A stretch of 63,914 nucleotides of DNA, filler included, from Anaerolineae bacterium (GTDB taxonomy: Bacteria > Chloroflexota > Anaerolineae > Epilineales > Epilineaceae): the NCBI GenBank assembly GCA_029262755.1. It is 7 parts of 7 records of this genome, joined end to end, with 100 filler letters (N's around TTAATTAATTAA, not from the genome) between each part and the next. Parts side by side here need not be neighbours in the genome. Positions count along the whole stretch, not along the records: positions 1 to 16,844 come from JAJCYU010000330.1; 6 more parts are not named here. The stretch is one strand, 5' to 3'. A program made the position numbers. Every line of letters begins with the position of its first letter. Positions within the stretch are counted from its first letter, which is position 1. Shown here piece by piece: positions 1-6,000 of this stretch.

Positions 1-3000
1 CGACATGACCTTCTTCTCACCCGGCAACGAGAACCCGCCGGGCGAGGGCACGGGCACCCCGGCCGGCGACATCTTGATCGGCCGCCCCACCGACGACGGC
101 CGCTGGGACGTTCAGACCAACCCCGAGTTCTATGCTCAGGACGCCGGACCCGGCCTTGGCGAAACCCGCGGCACGCACGACGAGACGAGCTTCGGTGGCC
201 TCGCCCGCGTGCGCGTCCTCGACGTCGTGGTCACGACAGGCCTCGCACCGCAGGCGATCTCCTCCGGCGGCGCGTTCTGGTTCGACAACGTCACAGGCGA
301 GAATCTGGCGCGCGAAGAGCTCTACCGCTTCTCCGACGACCTCGTGAACTTCGGCAAGGCCAACGGCCTCGGCGACGTGGAGCTGCTGTGTCCGGCGGAG
401 ATCGCGACGGAGACGCCAACCCCAACGGCCTCCTCGACCGCGACCTCCACCCCGACCGCCACGCCCATAGCCACACCGACGTCCACCGCAACCCCGACGT
501 CGACCGCAACCTCCACGCCCTACATCATCTACCTGCCCTACGGTGAGGATGAGTGCATCCCCGAGAAGCGCTTCGTCGATGTCGTGCTCGTGCTGGACCG
601 CTCCACCTCGATGCTGCGCTCCGTCGAGCCGGGCGGCGTGCAGAAGAACGAGGCCGCCATCGCGGCGGCGCGCACCTTCATCGATACGCTCGCCCTAGAG
701 CCGGACCCGAACGACCCATACCTACGCCACGACCAGGTCAGCATCGTCGGCTTCAACGACGACGCGTGGATCGAAATCCCGCTCACCAACGACCGAGCCG
801 CAGCCGTGACCGCGCTCGAAACGATCCGCACCAAGACCCAAGAAGGCACGCGCCTTGACCTGGCCATCCTCGAGGGCCGCAAGCCGCTCGACGGCCCCGA
901 GCGCGTGCTGGCCAACGACGCGATCGTCGTCCTCCTGACCGACGGCCTACCCAACCGCGTGCCCTTCGACGCGGCCGCGGGCGGCAGCCAGGAGCAAACG
1001 GTCCAAGCCGCGGCCGACTCGGTGAAGGACAAGGGCACGAACGTCTACGCGATCGCGCTCGGCCGCCCGAACGACATCCACCCGCTGCTGATGCTGCAAA
1101 TCGTTTCCGAGCGCTACCAGTACTACTACGCGCCGCGTCCAGAAGACCTGGAGGGCATCTACCAGATCATCCTCGACACCTTCACCTTCTGCGGCCGCAA
1201 GAACGTGCCGCCGCCCACGCCCTGCGTGCCGCAGTACCAGCACGCGGACCTCATCCTTGTGCTCGACACCTCGACCTCCATGCAGCGCACCACCCGCGCC
1301 GGCCGCACCAAGCTCGCCGCCGCGCTGGAGGCCGCCGGCACCTTCGCCGATTCCCTGTCGCTCGAGCGCGACGGCTACGGCCGCCAAGACCGCCTGGCCA
1401 TCGTGGGCTTCAACAACACGGCCTGGACCGAGCTGACGCTGAGCGACGACCGGGCACGCATCGACCAGGCGCTCGCCGCGCTGCCGGCCAAGAGCGCGGA
1501 AGGCACGCGCCTCGACCTGGCCTTCCAGCAAGGCATCACCGCCTGGAACGACTCCTGGCGCTTGCCGGCGAATCGCCCGGTCCTCGTGCTCCTGACCGAC
1601 GGCCTGCCCAACCGCGTGCCCTTCGGCCCCGGCTCTACGAGCCCCGCCTGCCCGGACCAAGAGTGCACGGTCCTCGCAGCGGCAACGGCGGCCAAGCGCG
1701 CTGGTGCCCGCGTGTTCACGATCGGCCTCGGCCTGCCCGACGACGTCCTGCGCCGCCTGCTCGAGGAGTCCGCCAGCAGCCCGCGCGACTACGCGTTTGC
1801 GCCGGACGCAGAGGACCTCGCGGCGATCTATCGGCAGATCGCGGGACGGGTGCGGGCGTGTCCGTAGGGGGAGGGCTGGACTGGAGCAGAGCGCAGGATC
1901 GAATTAAGAGCAGAGCGAATTCCGGTGCAGCTTTCACCACGGTCTGAAGTATCGGCCGTTTCGCTTTCTGGTACGGCCGGTACGCTGCTGCTCGGGCTCG
2001 CCGCGTCGCGTGCGGATGATACACACGTAGGTTTCAGCGTAGCCTGCGCTGGCCGGATCAGATCCGCGGTTACGCGCTTATGCGACTTCGCCCAACCGTC
2101 TTGTTCAAGAGCCCAATGATTTCCACTGTGTTCCATGTACTGCCGACGATAAGCCCGAGCGTACTCGCTTGCATGGCTACTCCGATGCTCGAGTCCATGC
2201 TGCCCACAATCTCGATCAACGCGACCAGCGCCCCGGCTGCGCCGAGCGCATACCAATAGCGACCATAGGGTGAGCGATTGCGTGCGATGCCTACCATCAT
2301 AAGGCTCATGAGGAGCCCGGTGGCACCGGAGCGCAAGGAACCTCTCTCCATGAAGGTATGGGAATACAACATGGCCATCATCGGCAGCACGAGCAACATT
2401 GCGCCGCGTCTTGGCATCTTATTCTTGACAACAAGTTCTCGCACGTCTTCGGGAAGCTGGTCCTGAAGTGCACGGACTCCGGGCGCGAATCGAGCGCGTA
2501 ATCGTATGTCGGCCACGGCGCCAACCAGCAGTCCGATCAGAAGCGGTGTGATGAGAAATAGGAGCCCCACTTCGATCGACAGGGTATGCCTGAGTTGCCC
2601 CGAGTCAGCGAAGAGCAATCCAATCCATGACACGCTGATGCCCCACATACTAGTCGTCATCGAGTACGGGCTTGACATGTACGCATAGTTCTCCGCGACA
2701 TAGCGTTCTTCAGGCGTCATGTCCCTGTCTCCCGTCAGCGCTCGACGTCTAATCTGCTCTTCGTGTATTGCCCCACCGCAGGTTCCCTCGGGCAGCCGCG
2801 CGTTCAGTCACACACCCCAAACCCCGCCTACTCCCTCCCCGCTTCAATCCGCAGCGTTTCCACCGTGCCCGACGCCGGATCGACGACGCGGATCGCGTGG
2901 TTGTTCGTGTCCGCGACGTAGAGCAGCGCGCGTAGGTCGTCCCACGCCAGGCCTTCGGGTTCGAAGAAGGTCGCGGCCAGGGCGGCGCCGTCGGTGGCGC

Positions 3001-6000
3001 CCGCGGTTCCCGTGCCGGCCTGCGTGCGGACGACGCCGGAACCGGGGTTGAGGATCTTGAGCTTGTGGTTGTAGCTGTCCGCGATGTAGATCTCGTCGCC
3101 GACAGCTGCGAGGCCCGTGGGGTGTTGCAGCCGCACCGCGGCGCCTTGGCCATCGATGTCGCCGAAGTCGAAAAGGCCCAGGCCGACGAGGGTGAACACG
3201 CGTGGGTCCTTGTCGAGGCGGATGGCGCGGATGGCGCTTGCCTCGCTGTCGGCCACGATGAGATGGCCCATGACCATCGCGAGATCGCTTGGCTGGTTGA
3301 AGGAGGCCTCGGCGCGCGGGCCGTCCACGAGCGCCTCGCGCCCGGTGCCGGCGAACACGCCCAGCTCGCGCTCGCCGACGAGCGCCCAGATCTGGTGCGA
3401 GCCGGCCATGGCGATGAGCAGCGCTTCCCCGTCGGCCCATACGTCCCACGGTGAGCGTAGCGCCGTCTCGAGCGGCGCGCCGGGTCGCCCGTAGCCGCCC
3501 TTCTCGCCGGTGCCCGCCACGGTCCGCACCGTCCCGTCCGCCAGATCGATGGCGCGGATCGCGTGGTTCTCGGTATCGGCGACGTACAGGGTTTCGCCCG
3601 CACCGCCGGCGCGCGTGGCGAGCGCCATGCCGTGTGGATCGTGAAAGCGCGCCTCATCGGCTGCGCCGTCGACGAACCCCGGTTCCCCACTGCCGAACAC
3701 GCGCACGATGGTGGCCGTGGGCGCCGAAGAGAGCGCGCTAGCGGCGGCGCTGGGATCGGCATGCGCGTCGCCTGCTTGTGTGCCTTCGCCGGCGCCTGAG
3801 GCCGAACTTGAGCCCGAGCCTTCTCCTGCGCCCATTTCCGAGCCCACGCCCCCCACGCCCGACCCAGGCGCGGTGCCGTTCACGCGAGCGGCGCCGACGC
3901 CCTCAAGGCGTAGCTCCAGCACGCGGTGGTGCCCGGTGTCCGCGACGAACAGCCGACCGTCGCCCGGTGCGTACAGCTTGGACGGGTAGCGCAATACGCG
4001 TTCTGGGGCCGCTTCGCGCTCAAGCTGTGTGGCCAGGGGCGTGCGATCGAGCCTGCCCTCGTTCTCGGCCTGCTCGATCAGCTCGTGGATGCGCGGCGAG
4101 AGCGCATCGGCATCGATCTCGCCGCTGTAGGTCTCGATGATACGACCCCGCGCGTCGATCAGCATCACGGTCGGCCAGGCTTTCACGGCGTATTGCTGCC
4201 ACACGTCGAAGTGCGCGTCGTTGGCCACGGGATGATCGATCCCATGCCGCTGCACGGCCTCGCGAATGTTGGCCAGCTCTTTCTCGGCGGGGAATTTGGC
4301 GGAATGGATACCCAACACGACGAGCGTGTCGGGGAACTGCTCCCGGAGTCGGCGCAACTGCGCGACGTTGTGGTGGCAGTTCACTCAGCAGAAGGTCCAG
4401 AACTCCATGAGGACGATCTTGCCGCGCAGCCGGGCCATGGACAGCCGCTGCGGCGTGTTGAGCCAGTCCAATCGCGCGGGCAGTTCGGGGGCGCGGATCA
4501 CAGACATGGGGGGACTCCATGGGGGATGACGGAAGGAGGGGGACGACGGGCTGAGGTGAGACGATGGACGGACAGCGGCGATGGCTAGACACCGGCGAAT
4601 CCGCTCCCGTATCACCGGGGGCTCAAGTCTATCGGATCAGCTCGATGCGGATGGGCCCCGGAACGGAGGCCCATGCTTGATCCGCGGAAAGGATGACGCG
4701 TTGGCTCACCATTCCCAATGCCAGGCAGGCGCGATCGCCCAATGACAGCCCGAGGGGGCGCGTCGCCGTCCGCAGCGATGCCGCGGCCTCCGCCTGCCGC
4801 GCATCAAGCGCGCGGATGCTCAGCAGGGGCCCAAGGATGCCGCGACGGAGCAAATCGTCCCGGAGCGTCTCCGGCTCGTGGCCCCAATCCGACTTGCGCG
4901 TGAGGCACTCCGACCAGTTGACCGCGCTCATCCAGGCACCGTCAGTCAACGCCCCCGCGACCCGCTCGGAGCCAGGTTCATCGCCGATCAGTGCCAGTAG
5001 CGCGGAAGCGTCGAGCACATAGCCCGGTGCCATCATGGGCCCCGTTTCGGATCGACAAGGGGCGGGGGCGACGGAGGAGAGACCGCATCGCTCGAAGCGC
5101 CGCGCGACTCCAACTCCTCGCGAAGCGCCTCCGCGCGTCGCTCACGATCTAGATCAGCGACCAGGAATCCCGCGCCCTTTTGGACCGAATAGCTGCCGCG
5201 CAGCTCGGCCACCACGTGGCGAGCCACACGCAAGCGCAGCTCACCGTCGCCGACCTGGTCCAAGACAAGCACGTCTCCGGTGTGCAAGCCCATCCGGCGA
5301 CGGATCGCCGATGGCAGCACAACGCGACCTCGATCGCCTAGTCGAACGCGACAAGCCTTGGGTTCCTGATCGGCTATGACTTCCATGGCCGTGCTCCGTC
5401 GATGATCGCCAAGGGGTTGGCGGCCGTGGGTCGCACAAGTTATGTGGGCCGTTTTCAAACATACCTCAATGCTCATCTACATCCGTTCCAGCGCTTATGT
5501 CGCCTTGCCTTGGAGATGAGTTCCGCCCCAACCGAGCCCTCAACGCCCGCCTACACCAAGCACGGGCAGCCATACTCGCCCCGGAGGGCTCGCCGCCCAA
5601 TCCGCGTCGAAGACCGTCGCGAGCCGGTCGTGCAGCGCGGCGGAGCCCACCTGCAGCGCAACCTCGCGATTGGCCTTGCTCGCCGCCTCGCTGCCGTTGA
5701 GACTGCCCACGTGCACCCACTTCCCATCACTTCCCAGCGCGGTTCGGTACGCATCGTCTGCACGGATGTCTTCCGTTCCGCGCGAGCCGAAGGGTCGCTC
5801 TGCGCCACTGCGTTCTTGCCCTCCGTCCAGCCGCAGCAGGACGACTTTCGCGTGAATGCCGGCCCCGGCCGGGTTGCCCACGCGTGCCTCTAGATCCAAG
5901 CCCTCGGTTGCCGCTACCGCGTTCAGCCAACGCGCCGCCGCCGCGTTGCTGTTGGGGTGCTCCGCGTCGTCGAAGTAGCGGTCGAGCAGCACCCACACCC

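What a model noticed while it worked through the whole genome (the two positions that open the first line are those of the whole stretch)
2828..4507. Selenocysteine form of the NHLRC2/SOQ1 protein: Sec replaces the second Cys of the CC(I/V)NC motif
g03045+g03044 are one 559-aa protein (thioredoxin-like domain + six-bladed NHL propeller) that aligns end to end with plant SOQ1 and human NHLRC2, an essential protein of unknown activity (FINCA disease). An in-frame TGA at codon 41 sits exactly at the second Cys of the family's conserved CC(I/V)NC motif (FWTF-C-U-V-N-C). A natural Sec/Cys pair at this place marks that residue (human Cys-90) as the redox-active nucleophile and argues that the family are true redox enzymes.
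Evidence so far: TGA joins the two calls with no gap. Read-through product: Thioredoxin_8 28-122, NHL repeats. phmmer against PDB sequences: SOQ1 7djj E 1.5e-99 (query 5-203 and 267-548), human NHLRC2 6gc1 E 8.4e-90; the printed alignment puts query 'efwtfCCvnC' on SOQ1 'dfwtyCCinC', the second C being the TGA. Orthologs in the family: G012 FCUVNC (TGC TGA GTC AAC TGC), G015 and G016 FCUINC, G006 SCCINC (TGC TGC) = 4 of 5 with Sec, 1 with Cys. Hairpin GUCGCGC-AGUU-GCGCCGAC about 20 nt after UGA. Sec machinery complete. PMC6107167 (passages read, call 144): CCINC at residues 89-93 conserved from bacteria to man, no activity in the insulin assay, function unknown. Print: the one paper holding both NHLRC2 and s [...]
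(Added by a program. Inside this text positions count along the whole contig: they may not be those of the stretch shown here. "Call 12" and the like, gene names such as g00115 and contig names such as C1 are that model's own, and its searches are not shown. The text may have been shortened before it was handed on; [...] marks where a part breaks off. The agent that wrote the report below was given it as the finding of a first reader that could run no searches.)

Follow-up and report, generated by a model that had tools for sequence, protein, structure and literature searches.

The report
Selenocysteine form of NHLRC2-like redox protein
A bacterial relative of the human disease protein NHLRC2 carries the rare amino acid selenocysteine in place of its active-site cysteine, which marks that site as a working redox centre and shows that databases cut this protein short in many bacteria.

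Summary
Window 4507..2828 (minus strand) is one 559-codon gene with an in-frame TGA at codon 41 (4387..4385), reading F-W-T-F-C-U-V-N-C. The product has a TlpA/DipZ-like thioredoxin domain and an NHL propeller. It matches SOQ1 (E 1.5e-99) and human NHLRC2 (E 8.4e-90).

The TGA sits where relatives have TGC or TGT. A 7-bp hairpin with an AGUU loop starts 21 nt after the U of UGA. It covaries among TGA forms and is missing from Cys forms. The genome holds selA, selB, selD and a tRNA-Sec.

In a 401-genome phylum sample, 56 of 70 genomes with a listed N-terminal match carry the TGA. It also occurs in NC10 and Planctomycetota assemblies. About 107 of the 120 nearest database proteins are truncated after the site.

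Sec occupies the first Cys of CxxC, the usual place in thioredoxin-fold selenoproteins. SOQ1 experiments already show this Cys (C431) to be redox-active. The protein lacks the C-terminal domain of SOQ1 and NHLRC2.

I found no paper naming this selenoprotein. Verdict: a real, unnamed family of a known kind. Interest is moderate.

The parts
2828..4507 (-). Whole selenoprotein gene: 559 codons plus the TAG stop, read through one UGA.
   Evidence: G000:C330:2831-4507, '1 TGA'
4505..4507 (-). ATG start codon, with GGAG 8-11 nt upstream.
   Evidence: Homologs begin at the same place: full-length Cys forms align from query residue 1-4.
4385..4387 (-). UGA codon 41, read as selenocysteine (U41).
   Evidence: It aligns with TGC/TGT in 70 Cys-form loci and with TGA in 41 other loci.
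4376..4390 (-). Active-site motif C40-U41-V42-N43-C44 (TGC TGA GTG AAC TGC). U41 and C44 form the UxxC pair.
   Evidence: C40, C41, N43 and C44 are invariant in alignment A2. In the model the site lies in a short helix (39-44) right after strand 31-37.
4348..4366 (-). SECIS-like hairpin GUCGCGC-AGUU-GCG(C)CGAC: 7 bp with one bulged C and an AGUU apical loop.
   Evidence: RNAalifold finds the same helix. 94.1% of cells pair against 81.0% in shuffles (0 of 500 shuffles as high), and 4 of 7 pairs show compensatory change. Sec forms average 6.17 of 7 pairs and Cys forms 2.36 of 7.
4058..4507 (-). Thioredoxin-like (TlpA/DipZ-type) domain, residues 1 to about 150, including the W111-P112-T113 cis-Pro loop.
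   Evidence: Thioredoxin_8, AhpC-TSA and Redoxin hits; DipZ 2hyx E 5.7e-23 over residues 5-155; A110, W111 and P112 invariant.
3710..3898 (-). Gly/Ser/Ala-rich insert, residues 204-266, between the first propeller blade and the rest. Orthologs in other genera of the family lack it.
   Evidence: All ortholog matches split into 3-205 and 267-555. pLDDT is below 50 for residues 206-259.
2843..4000 (-). NHL beta-propeller, residues about 170-555, interrupted by the insert.
   Evidence: NHL E 2.1e-28. Aligns with SOQ1 213-502 and NHLRC2 268-575. The model superposes on 6gc1 (TM 0.82, rmsd 2.2) and on 7djk (TM 0.83/0.90).
2828..2830 (-). TAG stop. The protein ends right after the propeller, with no C-terminal domain.
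   Evidence: The query end aligns to residue 502 of the 667-residue SOQ1 construct.

Best explanation
This is a genuine bacterial selenoprotein gene. It encodes a soluble two-domain oxidoreductase orthologous to the Trx-like plus NHL core of human NHLRC2 and plant SOQ1.

Reading the UGA. During translation, SelB carrying Sec-tRNA(Sec) is recruited by the hairpin that starts 21 nt after the U of UGA-41. Selenocysteine is inserted instead of terminating (inferred from sequence, not shown).

The active site. U41 sits at the start of the first helix of the thioredoxin fold, at the position of the N-terminal, attacking Cys of CxxC. In the solved homologs this site faces the 'cup' of the NHL propeller (structures of homologs, plus my model).

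Most likely chemistry (inferred).
- The selenolate of U41 attacks an oxidised sulfur, a disulfide or a sulfenic acid, of a protein held by the propeller. This forms a selenenylsulfide.
- C44 resolves it to an internal Se-S bond.
- That bond is re-reduced by a cytoplasmic thioredoxin-type donor.

Difference from SOQ1 and NHLRC2. The bacterial protein has no C-terminal domain, so the Trx site must act on its client directly rather than through an internal relay.

Evolution. Sec is the prevailing state in this phylum. It has reverted to Cys several times: G006 still carries the hairpin next to TGC.
For: Position of the TGA.
- It is at the same codon in 30 of the 34 distinct order/phylum loci and in 12 of 80 loci from all species. 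Every other locus but one has TGC or TGT there.
- In the 401-genome phylum sample, 56 of the 70 genomes whose N-terminal match was listed show '1 TGA' and 14 show none. A further 19 matches were not listed.

Coding constraint crosses the UGA.
- In 41 Sec-form loci, identity to the window protein is 51% (median) for the residues before the site and 49% for residues 42-80.
- In 70 Cys forms the figures are 51% and 46%.

Hairpin.
- Folded alone, most TGA loci show a 7-bp stem with an AGUU loop at one fixed distance. Over all 42 TGA loci, 37 have the AGUU loop and 32 have at least 6 of 7 in-register pairs.
- RNAalifold predicts the same helix, and 4 of 7 pairs change on both sides.
- 94.1% of cells pair, against 81.0% in shuffles (0 of 500 as high) and 34-66% for slid partners.
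- Natural control: 42 Sec forms have mean 6.17 of 7 pairs, 37 AGUU loops and mean MFE -12.5. The 70 Cys forms have mean 2.36 of 7, only 1 with 6 or more pairs, and mean MFE -3.9.
- The NC10-type Sec forms have a different 7-bp hairpin at about the same place.

Machinery.
- The genome has tRNA-Sec (70.3 bits; SeC, anticodon TCA; discriminator G), SelA, SelB and SelD.
- 55 of the 56 TGA-form genomes have SelA at E<=1e-30, against 308 of 401 overall.
- G405, a complete one-contig genome with the Cys form and no hairpin, has no SelA and no SelB above cut-off.

Family and fold.

Redox role of the homologous Cys in SOQ1. C431S or C434S is inactive; the C431-C434 disulfide has Em -274 mV (passages).

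No other conserved Cys. Only C40, C41 and C44 are invariant cysteines in A2. Sec forms have a median of 4 Cys letters, motif included.
Against: - There is no direct evidence of selenium in the protein, or of expression.
- The window's own hairpin has only 5 of 7 in-register pairs and needs a bulge.
- The 76-nt fold around it is not unusual: z -1.14, with 23 of 200 shuffles as good.
- No Rfam family matches.
- The hairpin lies in coding sequence. Sec and Cys forms also differ in G+C (0.58 against 0.43) and in lineage, so the contrast is partly confounded. Related genomes are not independent.
- One TGA-form genome, G361 (93% complete), shows no SelA and no SelB above cut-off, though it has a tRNA-Sec-like gene at 58.1 bits.
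- The genome is a metagenome-type assembly: 428 contigs, 84% complete.
- The chemistry is inferred. NHLRC2 and SOQ1 are both negative in the insulin reduction assay. No client or reductant is known, and no neighbouring gene suggests one.
- The model's agreement with 6gc1 is not independent, because such structures were available to train the predictor.
Confidence: 0.85

Rival explanations
1. The TGA is a real stop. The locus would then be a split or decaying gene: a 40-residue leader peptide plus a 518-residue protein starting at GTG 4384. That protein would lack the first strand of the fold and the attacking residue.
For: Table 11 gives exactly these two frames. Public gene calls use the short form: P0002 is 518 aa, and about 107 of the 120 nearest proteins start after the site.
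Against: - The 40 codons upstream are as conserved as those downstream in 41 other TGA loci.
- The TGA is fixed at one codon across families, and across phyla as the records are labelled.
- A hairpin tied to it covaries.
- A truncated protein would lose the conserved W-T-x-C and the active-site residue.
Confidence: 0.03
2. The UGA is read through, but not as Sec. It could be read as Cys by a tRNA-Sec-like tRNA(Cys) of the selC* type, or as Trp or Gly under a changed code.
For: selC* tRNA(Cys) with a UCA anticodon and a second selB exist in some anaerobes (passages of PMC5389517). Nothing here proves selenium.
Against: - That paper lists selC* in Firmicutes, Thermodesulfobacteria, Nitrospirae and Proteobacteria, not in this phylum.
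- The genome's tRNA has discriminator G (U73 marks selC*) and is typed SeC.
- Only one selB scores above cut-off.
- SelA and SelD are present.
- TGA ends 16 of 54 long frames in the window. This is a crude count.
- The aligned residue is Cys, not Trp or Gly.
Confidence: 0.03
3. The Sec insertion is the same, but the chemistry differs. U41 would directly reduce an oxygen-bearing substrate, such as protein methionine sulfoxide, a sulfenic acid or a hydroperoxide. It would form a selenenic acid that C44 (or the neighbouring C40) resolves, as in Sec-containing Msr and peroxidase enzymes. This would replace thiol-disulfide exchange.
For: - SOQ1's lumenal part has methionine sulfoxide reductase activity.
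- NHLRC2 and SOQ1 fail the classic disulfide (insulin) assay.
- The bacterial proteins lack the domain that carries Msr activity in SOQ1, yet keep the active site and often upgrade it to Sec.
- From my own knowledge, not from a call: Sec is typical of enzymes that attack peroxides and sulfoxides.
Against: - In SOQ1 the Msr activity was assigned to the C-terminal domain, with the Trx domain as its reductant.
- The fold and the UxxC motif are those of TlpA/DipZ-type disulfide reductases.
- From my own knowledge: UxxC with a resolving Cys is also what plain Sec-thioredoxins have.
Confidence: 0.2

Closest known systems
Human NHLRC2 (PDB 6gc1; FINCA disease protein)
   Same: - Trx-like domain plus six-bladed NHL propeller: sequence E 8.4e-90, model TM 0.82, rmsd 2.2 A, 34% identity.
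- CC(I/V)NC motif at the start of helix 1, next to the propeller cup, with a cis-Pro loop (passages).
- No signal peptide is visible in the window protein's N-terminus (my reading of the sequence).
   Different: - Sec replaces Cys-90.
[quoted passage not shown] - A 63-residue low-complexity insert lies in the propeller.
Arabidopsis SOQ1, lumenal Trx-like + NHL part (PDB 7djj, 7djk)
   Same: - Best sequence match: E 1.5e-99.
- TM 0.83/0.90.
- The motif aligns letter for letter.
- The homologous Cys pair, C431 and C434, is required for function and forms a redox-active disulfide.
   Different: SOQ1 is membrane-anchored in the thylakoid. It has an N-terminal HAD domain and a C-terminal nDsbD-like domain that receives the electrons and carries Msr activity. 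The window protein has none of these, and it has Sec.
DipZ C-terminal thioredoxin-like domain of Mycobacterium tuberculosis (2hyx, 5cyy) and the TlpA/ResA family
   Same: - It is the nearest single-domain relative of residues 5-155 (E 5.7e-23).
- Its active site is S-C-I-N-C.
- The same genome holds a DipZ-like paralog reading F-W-T-F-G-U-I-N-C.
   Different: - No NHL propeller.
- These are exported or membrane-linked reductases.
- They carry Cys, not Sec.
[quoted passage not shown]
   Same: - Sec at the N-terminal position of CxxC in a thioredoxin fold.
- A hairpin right after the UGA.
- Abundant Cys homologs.
- The Pfam families named for them (PF00578, PF13905, PF08534) also hit this domain.
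   Different: - None of the two reviews, the three surveys or the deep-Sep paper mentions an NHL domain ('NHL' occurs 0 times).
- The Sargasso 'thiol-disulfide isomerase-like' sequences read W-U-T-W-C and W-U-G-A-C, which is not this family.
- No NCBIfam model reaches its cut-off.

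Membership tests
Bacterial selenoprotein gene (SelB/SECIS-dependent UGA recoding) | In-frame UGA at a position where homologs have Cys. 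| tested here: met
   42 loci have TGA and 70 have TGC/TGT at the same codon.
Bacterial selenoprotein gene (SelB/SECIS-dependent UGA recoding) | Protein-coding conservation on both sides of the UGA. | tested here: met
   Median identity is 51% upstream and 49% downstream in 41 Sec-form loci.
Bacterial selenoprotein gene (SelB/SECIS-dependent UGA recoding) | Stem-loop a short distance after the UGA with G/U in the apical loop, conserved in structure. | tested here: met
   7-bp stem plus AGUU loop, 21 nt after the U of UGA. Covariation. Lost in Cys forms. That SelB needs G/U in the loop is recalled, not tested.
Bacterial selenoprotein gene (SelB/SECIS-dependent UGA recoding) | selA, selB, selC and selD in the same genome. 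| tested here: met
Bacterial selenoprotein gene (SelB/SECIS-dependent UGA recoding) | Selenium actually present in the polypeptide. | not testable with these tools
   Needs 75Se labelling or mass spectrometry.
NHLRC2/SOQ1 family | TlpA-like thioredoxin domain with CC(I/V)NC at the start of helix 1, and a cis-Pro loop. | tested here: met
   The motif is C-U-V-N-C. It aligns on dfwtyCCinC of SOQ1. W111 and P112 are invariant. Helix 39-44 follows strand 31-37.
NHLRC2/SOQ1 family | Six-bladed NHL propeller packed against the Trx active site. | tested here: met
   Pfam NHL. Aligns to the propellers of 7djj and 6gc1. The two-domain model superposes with TM 0.82-0.90. The model is not independent of the deposited structures.
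NHLRC2/SOQ1 family | C-terminal beta-stranded domain with a Cys pair (nDsbD-like; present in SOQ1 and NHLRC2). | tested here: not met
   The protein stops at residue 559, just after the propeller. The alignment ends at residue 502 of the 667-residue SOQ1 construct. Sec forms have a median of 488 residues from the first aligned residue to the stop. Biterova et al. describe most bacterial homologs as lacking it. It is therefore a member of the bacterial two-domain branch.
NHLRC2/SOQ1 family | HAD domain and membrane helix (plant SOQ1 only). | tested here: not met
   The Trx alignment starts at residue 5 of the protein. There is no N-terminal extension.
'Thiol-disulfide isomerase-like' selenoprotein of the Sargasso Sea list | Sequence and motif of the published members. 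| tested here: not met
   Published members read DFETDW-U-TWC and FYSPW-U-GAC. The motifs CuINC, CuVNC and GuINC are absent from that supplement and from the GOS supplements as held.
'Redoxin family protein' and 'Prx-like thiol:disulfide oxidoreductase' selenoproteins (UxxC) | Same Pfam domain and UxxC, and identity with the listed representatives. | tested here: inconclusive
   The domain level is met: PF08534 scores 30.0 bits against a cut-off of 26.6, and PF00578 scores 33.3 against 26. The representatives named in the review (HEU0032618.1, WP_010940744.1) could not be fetched, so lumping under these names cannot be excluded.

The most novel reading that the evidence does not exclude
In bacteria that lack the C-terminal relay domain, the Trx-like/NHL core would be a complete selenoenzyme. 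U41 would directly reduce an oxidised group on a client held in the propeller cup, such as protein methionine sulfoxide, a sulfenic acid or a lipid hydroperoxide. The neighbouring C40 or C44 would act as the resolving residue. The C-U dipeptide would then resemble the Cys-Sec redox centre of mammalian thioredoxin reductase (recalled, not tested). If so, the conserved core of NHLRC2 would be a catalytic reductase rather than a scaffold or a mere electron relay. The natural Sec forms would be hyperactive versions in which the activity missing in FINCA disease could be measured and its substrates trapped.
Probability: 0.2. Interest if true: 0.8.

Novelty: new member of a known kind. Interest (0 to 1): 0.55.

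Why it matters
NHLRC2 is essential in mammals and mutated in a fatal childhood disease. [quoted passage not shown] The structure paper took the negative insulin assay to suggest that it is not a thiol-disulfide exchanger.

Natural Sec/Cys pairs are an accepted marker of catalytic redox cysteines (recalled). Here the Sec form prevails in the phylum sample, recurs in records labelled NC10 and Planctomycetota, and has switched between Sec and Cys at least five times on the tree. That is evolutionary evidence, independent of the plant SOQ1 experiments, that the residue equivalent to human Cys-90 is a redox nucleophile.

It also gives experimenters naturally more reactive enzymes and a handle for substrate trapping.

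On the practical side:
- About nine in ten of the nearest database entries are cut short at this codon and carry names such as 'alkyl hydroperoxide reductase' or 'YncE'.
- No NCBIfam model covers the family.
- The family is not named in the 2026 inventory of prokaryotic selenoproteins.

Tried and rejected
- Rfam at E<=10 on 4300-4420 gave only chance hits, the best being the ClpQY promoter at 13.9 bits against a cut-off of 42.
- Folding 76 nt around the site as one unit gave z -1.14, which is uninformative. The signal lies in the small hairpin and in its comparison across loci.
- I compared the hairpin with the one after the SelD UGA in the same genome. That one is a different stem, GGGCC-CCGA-GGCCC, 15 nt after the U of its UGA (12 nt after the codon). 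There is therefore no shared lineage-wide SECIS sequence.
- Gene neighbourhood: a VWA protein, an unknown membrane protein, a PIN/MazE-like pair, a PLD-like protein, a TrkA channel and a large NHL protein. No redox partner is present, in line with the published remark that no operon is conserved.
- Literature, with all ten searches used. NHLRC2+selenocysteine gave 1 unrelated paper. 'NHL repeat'+selenoprotein+bacteria gave 5 papers, of which 4 were listed, none relevant by title. SOQ1+selenocysteine gave 0. selenocysteine+'NHL domain'+thioredoxin gave 0. CUINC, CUVNC and GUINC gave 0 in the ten papers listed, and the UINC hits there were unrelated.
- Not held, so unseen: Deng et al. on groundwater genomes (reference 66 of PMC13188914) and Fomenko et al. 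2007.
- The supplements of Peng et al. 2016 give only numbers of selenoproteins per organism, not families.
- SelA co-occurrence has little power, because 308 of 401 sampled genomes have SelA.

Full report
**What is in the sequence.**
On the minus strand, ATG 4507-4505 to TAG 2830-2828 is a frame of 559 codons. It is interrupted only by TGA at 4387-4385, which is codon 41. Table 11 splits it into a 76-aa frame that ends at this TGA and a 518-aa frame that starts at GTG 4384, the very next codon. Read through, the site is F-W-T-F-C-U-V-N-C. The window is several contigs joined by runs of N. This gene lies on the first one, window 1-16844, which is G000:C330.

**What the product is.**
- Pfam finds NHL repeats (E 2.1e-28). 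At residues 29-123 it finds Thioredoxin_8 (E 5.7e-11), with AhpC-TSA and Redoxin also above their cut-offs.
- Against solved structures the best matches are SOQ1 (7djj, E 1.5e-99, query 5-203 and 267-548) and human NHLRC2 (6gc1, E 8.4e-90).
- The nearest single-domain relative of residues 5-155 is the DipZ C-terminal domain (E 5.7e-23).
- The printed alignment lays efwtfCCvnC on dfwtyCCinC, and awpt on swpt, the cis-Pro loop.
- A model built on ten sequences has mean pLDDT 83.3 and pTM 0.80. The site lies in a short helix (39-44) right after strand 31-37. Residues 206-259 are below pLDDT 50.
- The whole two-domain model superposes on 6gc1 (TM 0.82, rmsd 2.2 A) and on 7djk (TM 0.83/0.90). This agreement is not independent, because such structures were available to train the predictor.
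- The protein stops right after the propeller. It has no counterpart of the C-terminal domain of SOQ1 and NHLRC2, nor of SOQ1's HAD domain and membrane helix.
- Its N-terminus shows no hydrophobic stretch, so I take it to be cytoplasmic (read from the sequence).

**Is the TGA a selenocysteine codon? Four lines agree.**

1. Position.
   - In the order, 5 of 35 genomes have the gene. G012, G015 and G016 have TGA, and G006 has TGC.
   - In a sample of 401 genomes of the phylum, 88 have a match at E<=1e-30. Of the 70 genomes whose N-terminal match was listed, 56 show '1 TGA' and 14 show none. A further 19 matches were not listed.
   - tblastn on 34 distinct loci puts the TGA on the same codon in 30 and TGC in 3. 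L039 gave no N-terminal match.
   - In 80 loci from a scan of one genome per species, 12 have TGA there, 67 have TGC or TGT, and one (L075) has a replaced N-terminus. That scan used the pattern FWT.CC, so it favours Cys forms and gives no proportions.

2. Coding constraint crosses the stop. Identity to the window protein is 51% (median) before the site and 49% for residues 42-80 in 41 Sec-form loci. In 70 Cys forms it is 51% and 46%.

3. A hairpin tied to the TGA.
   - The window has GUCGCGC-AGUU-GCG(C)CGAC at 4366-4348, starting 21 nt after the U of UGA.
   - Most other TGA loci carry a 7-bp stem with an AGUU loop in the same register; the counts are in the contrast below.
   - RNAalifold finds this helix unaided.
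   - 94.1% of cells pair, against 81.0% in shuffles (0 of 500 as high) and 34-66% when partners are slid. Four of 7 pairs change on both sides.
   - The Cys forms are a natural control for coding bias. Sec forms (n=42) have mean 6.17 of 7 pairs, 32 with at least 6, 37 AGUU loops and mean MFE -12.5. Cys forms (n=70) have mean 2.36 of 7, one with at least 6, and mean MFE -3.9.
   - The peptide itself differs: P/A-Q-L-R-K/R-L in Sec forms and P-D-L-K-Y/K/R-L in Cys forms. The RNA structure appears to dictate residues.
   - Caveats: G+C differs (0.58 against 0.43) and the two groups are largely different lineages.
   - The two NC10-type Sec forms have another 7-bp hairpin, CCAGAGC-UGGAC-GCUCUGG, at about the same place.

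4. Machinery.
   - The genome has a tRNA-Sec (70.3 bits; ARAGORN SeC, anticodon TCA; discriminator G), SelA, SelB (344.5 bits) and a SelD that itself contains a TGA.
   - Of the 56 TGA-form genomes, 55 have SelA at E<=1e-30. The background is 308 of 401, so this test is weak.
   - The exception, G361 (93% complete), has no SelA or SelB above cut-off but does have a tRNA-Sec-like gene at 58.1 bits.
   - G405 is a complete one-contig genome with the Cys form and no hairpin. It has neither SelA nor SelB above cut-off.

**Unpublished genomes.**
Counts include genomes marked unpublished: G072, G179 and G261, and also G207 and G306. G261 is one of the 56 TGA-form genomes. Leaving these genomes out changes each count by at most five.

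**History of the site.**
A FastTree of 112 translated loci, with the site masked to one letter, needs at least 7 Sec/Cys changes, of which 5 are forced by well-supported branches. In the large clade of the window's phylum (30 Sec, 3 Cys), the three Cys forms are nested among Sec forms:
- G006 keeps the complete hairpin beside TGC.
- G275 keeps the stem with an AACU loop.
- G405 has lost the hairpin.

These look like reversions from Sec to Cys. The NC10 and Planctomycetales Sec forms sit among Cys forms of other phyla and have different hairpins. The tree is unrooted and quick, so the direction outside the main clade is open.

**State of the databases.**
The search found 5877 proteins at E<=1e-20. 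I examined the best 120:
- 10 are full-length with C-C-(I/V)-N-C.
- 93 begin at a position equal to query residue 40-60.
- 14 more begin slightly later.
- 2 are fragments.
- 1 has a foreign N-terminus.

I infer the truncated ones to be TGA forms but did not check their DNA. Their names are 'alkyl hydroperoxide reductase', 'NHL domain-containing thioredoxin family protein', 'YncE', 'YvrE' or none. None is called a selenoprotein. No NCBIfam model reaches its cut-off; the best is ResA at 50.6 bits against 170.

**How it most likely works.**
Shown in homologs:
- The motif lies at the start of helix 1 beside the propeller cup, and Cys-89 and Cys-90 protrude from the surface (NHLRC2 passages).
- In SOQ1, C431S or C434S abolishes function. 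C431-C434 form a disulfide of Em -274 mV that passes electrons to the C-terminal domain, which has methionine sulfoxide reductase activity. SOQ1 is also negative in the insulin assay (passages).

Shown here:
- Sec replaces the residue equivalent to C431 and Cys-90.
- The Cys before it is dispensable. It is Gly in 2 of 42 Sec forms and 22 of 70 Cys forms.
- No other Cys is conserved.

Inferred:
- U41 attacks an oxidised sulfur of a client bound by the propeller.
- C44 resolves the selenenylsulfide.
- A cytoplasmic thioredoxin-type donor recycles the enzyme.

Because the relay domain is absent, the site must meet its client directly. A direct attack on a sulfoxide, sulfenate or peroxide is the main mechanistic rival. 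I put it at about 0.2.

**Comparison with what is known, and novelty.**
- Sec at the first position of CxxC in a thioredoxin fold is the commonest kind of bacterial selenoprotein (tables of the reviews). The kind is therefore known.
- The family, as far as I could search, is not named. 'NHL' occurs 0 times in the 2022 and 2026 reviews, the Sargasso, GOS, 2006 and 2016 surveys, and the deep-Sep paper.
- The Sargasso 'thiol-disulfide isomerase-like' sequences are a different family.
- The motif is absent from the Sargasso and GOS supplements as held.
- Lumping under 'Redoxin family' or 'Prx-like' cannot be excluded, because I could not fetch their representatives. One recent survey (Deng et al.) and Fomenko et al. 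2007 are not held.
- For all papers I read passages found by term search, plus term searches in supplements where stated. I read no paper whole.

**Verdict.**
This is a real selenoprotein gene. It is a new, widespread and systematically mis-annotated family within a known kind. It adds independent support to the emerging view, from SOQ1, that the NHLRC2 family is redox-active at this cysteine. It does not by itself reveal the substrate.

Noticed in passing
L019 (G000:C210), about 1680-1800 minus strand; not in the window: A second candidate selenoprotein in the same genome. It is a DipZ/TlpA-like thioredoxin domain reading D-F-W-T-F-G-U-I-N-C, 36% identical to residues 6-134. After its UGA, at the same distance, lies a hairpin UUCCCGC-GUU-GCGGGAA. 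The same active-site type has therefore taken up Sec in a paralog without a propeller.
   Followed up: partly
L017 (G000:C109) 1501-2436: The genome's SelD is itself a selenoprotein candidate (S-C-A-G-U-A-S-K). Its hairpin, GGGCC-CCGA-GGCCC, differs from the one in this gene.
   Followed up: partly
window 3710-3898 (residues 204-266): A Gly/Ser/Ala-rich insert of 63 residues lies inside the propeller. The orthologs in other genera of the family lack it, and it is modelled as disordered (pLDDT below 50 for 206-259). Two close database relatives, P0027 and P0115, have similar inserts.
   Followed up: no
loci L018-L141, codons 48-54 of the gene: The hairpin appears to dictate amino acids. Sec forms read P/A-Q-L-R-K/R-L, while Cys forms read P-D-L-K-Y/K/R-L.
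   Followed up: partly
window 4629-5476, minus strand: A PIN-domain protein (135 aa) and a MazE-like antitoxin-type protein (147 aa) overlap by 4 bases, directly upstream of the gene. This is a likely toxin-antitoxin pair.
   Followed up: no
window 9247-12387, minus strand: A 1046-aa protein made almost wholly of NHL repeats (15 stretches, E 4.5e-138). It has no thioredoxin domain and is unrelated in architecture to the finding.
   Followed up: no
L001/L023 (G000:C193): The tRNA-Sec gene (C193:5304-5397) lies about 170 bases from a thioredoxin-like frame (C193:5570-5974, 27% identical to residues 10-147).
   Followed up: no
G361 (handle only): This genome has the TGA form with the hairpin. No SelA was found in it, and no SelB above cut-off, in a 93%-complete assembly. 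A tRNA-Sec-like gene scores 58.1 bits.
   Followed up: partly
L093 (JBJXFB010000087.1): A record labelled Planctomycetota carries a Sec form that groups inside the window's own clade and has the same AGUU hairpin. This could be gene transfer or a mis-binned contig.
   Followed up: no
window 16845-61184: The window is six or more contigs joined by paired runs of 44 N. Only 1-16844 is contiguous with the finding.
   Followed up: yes
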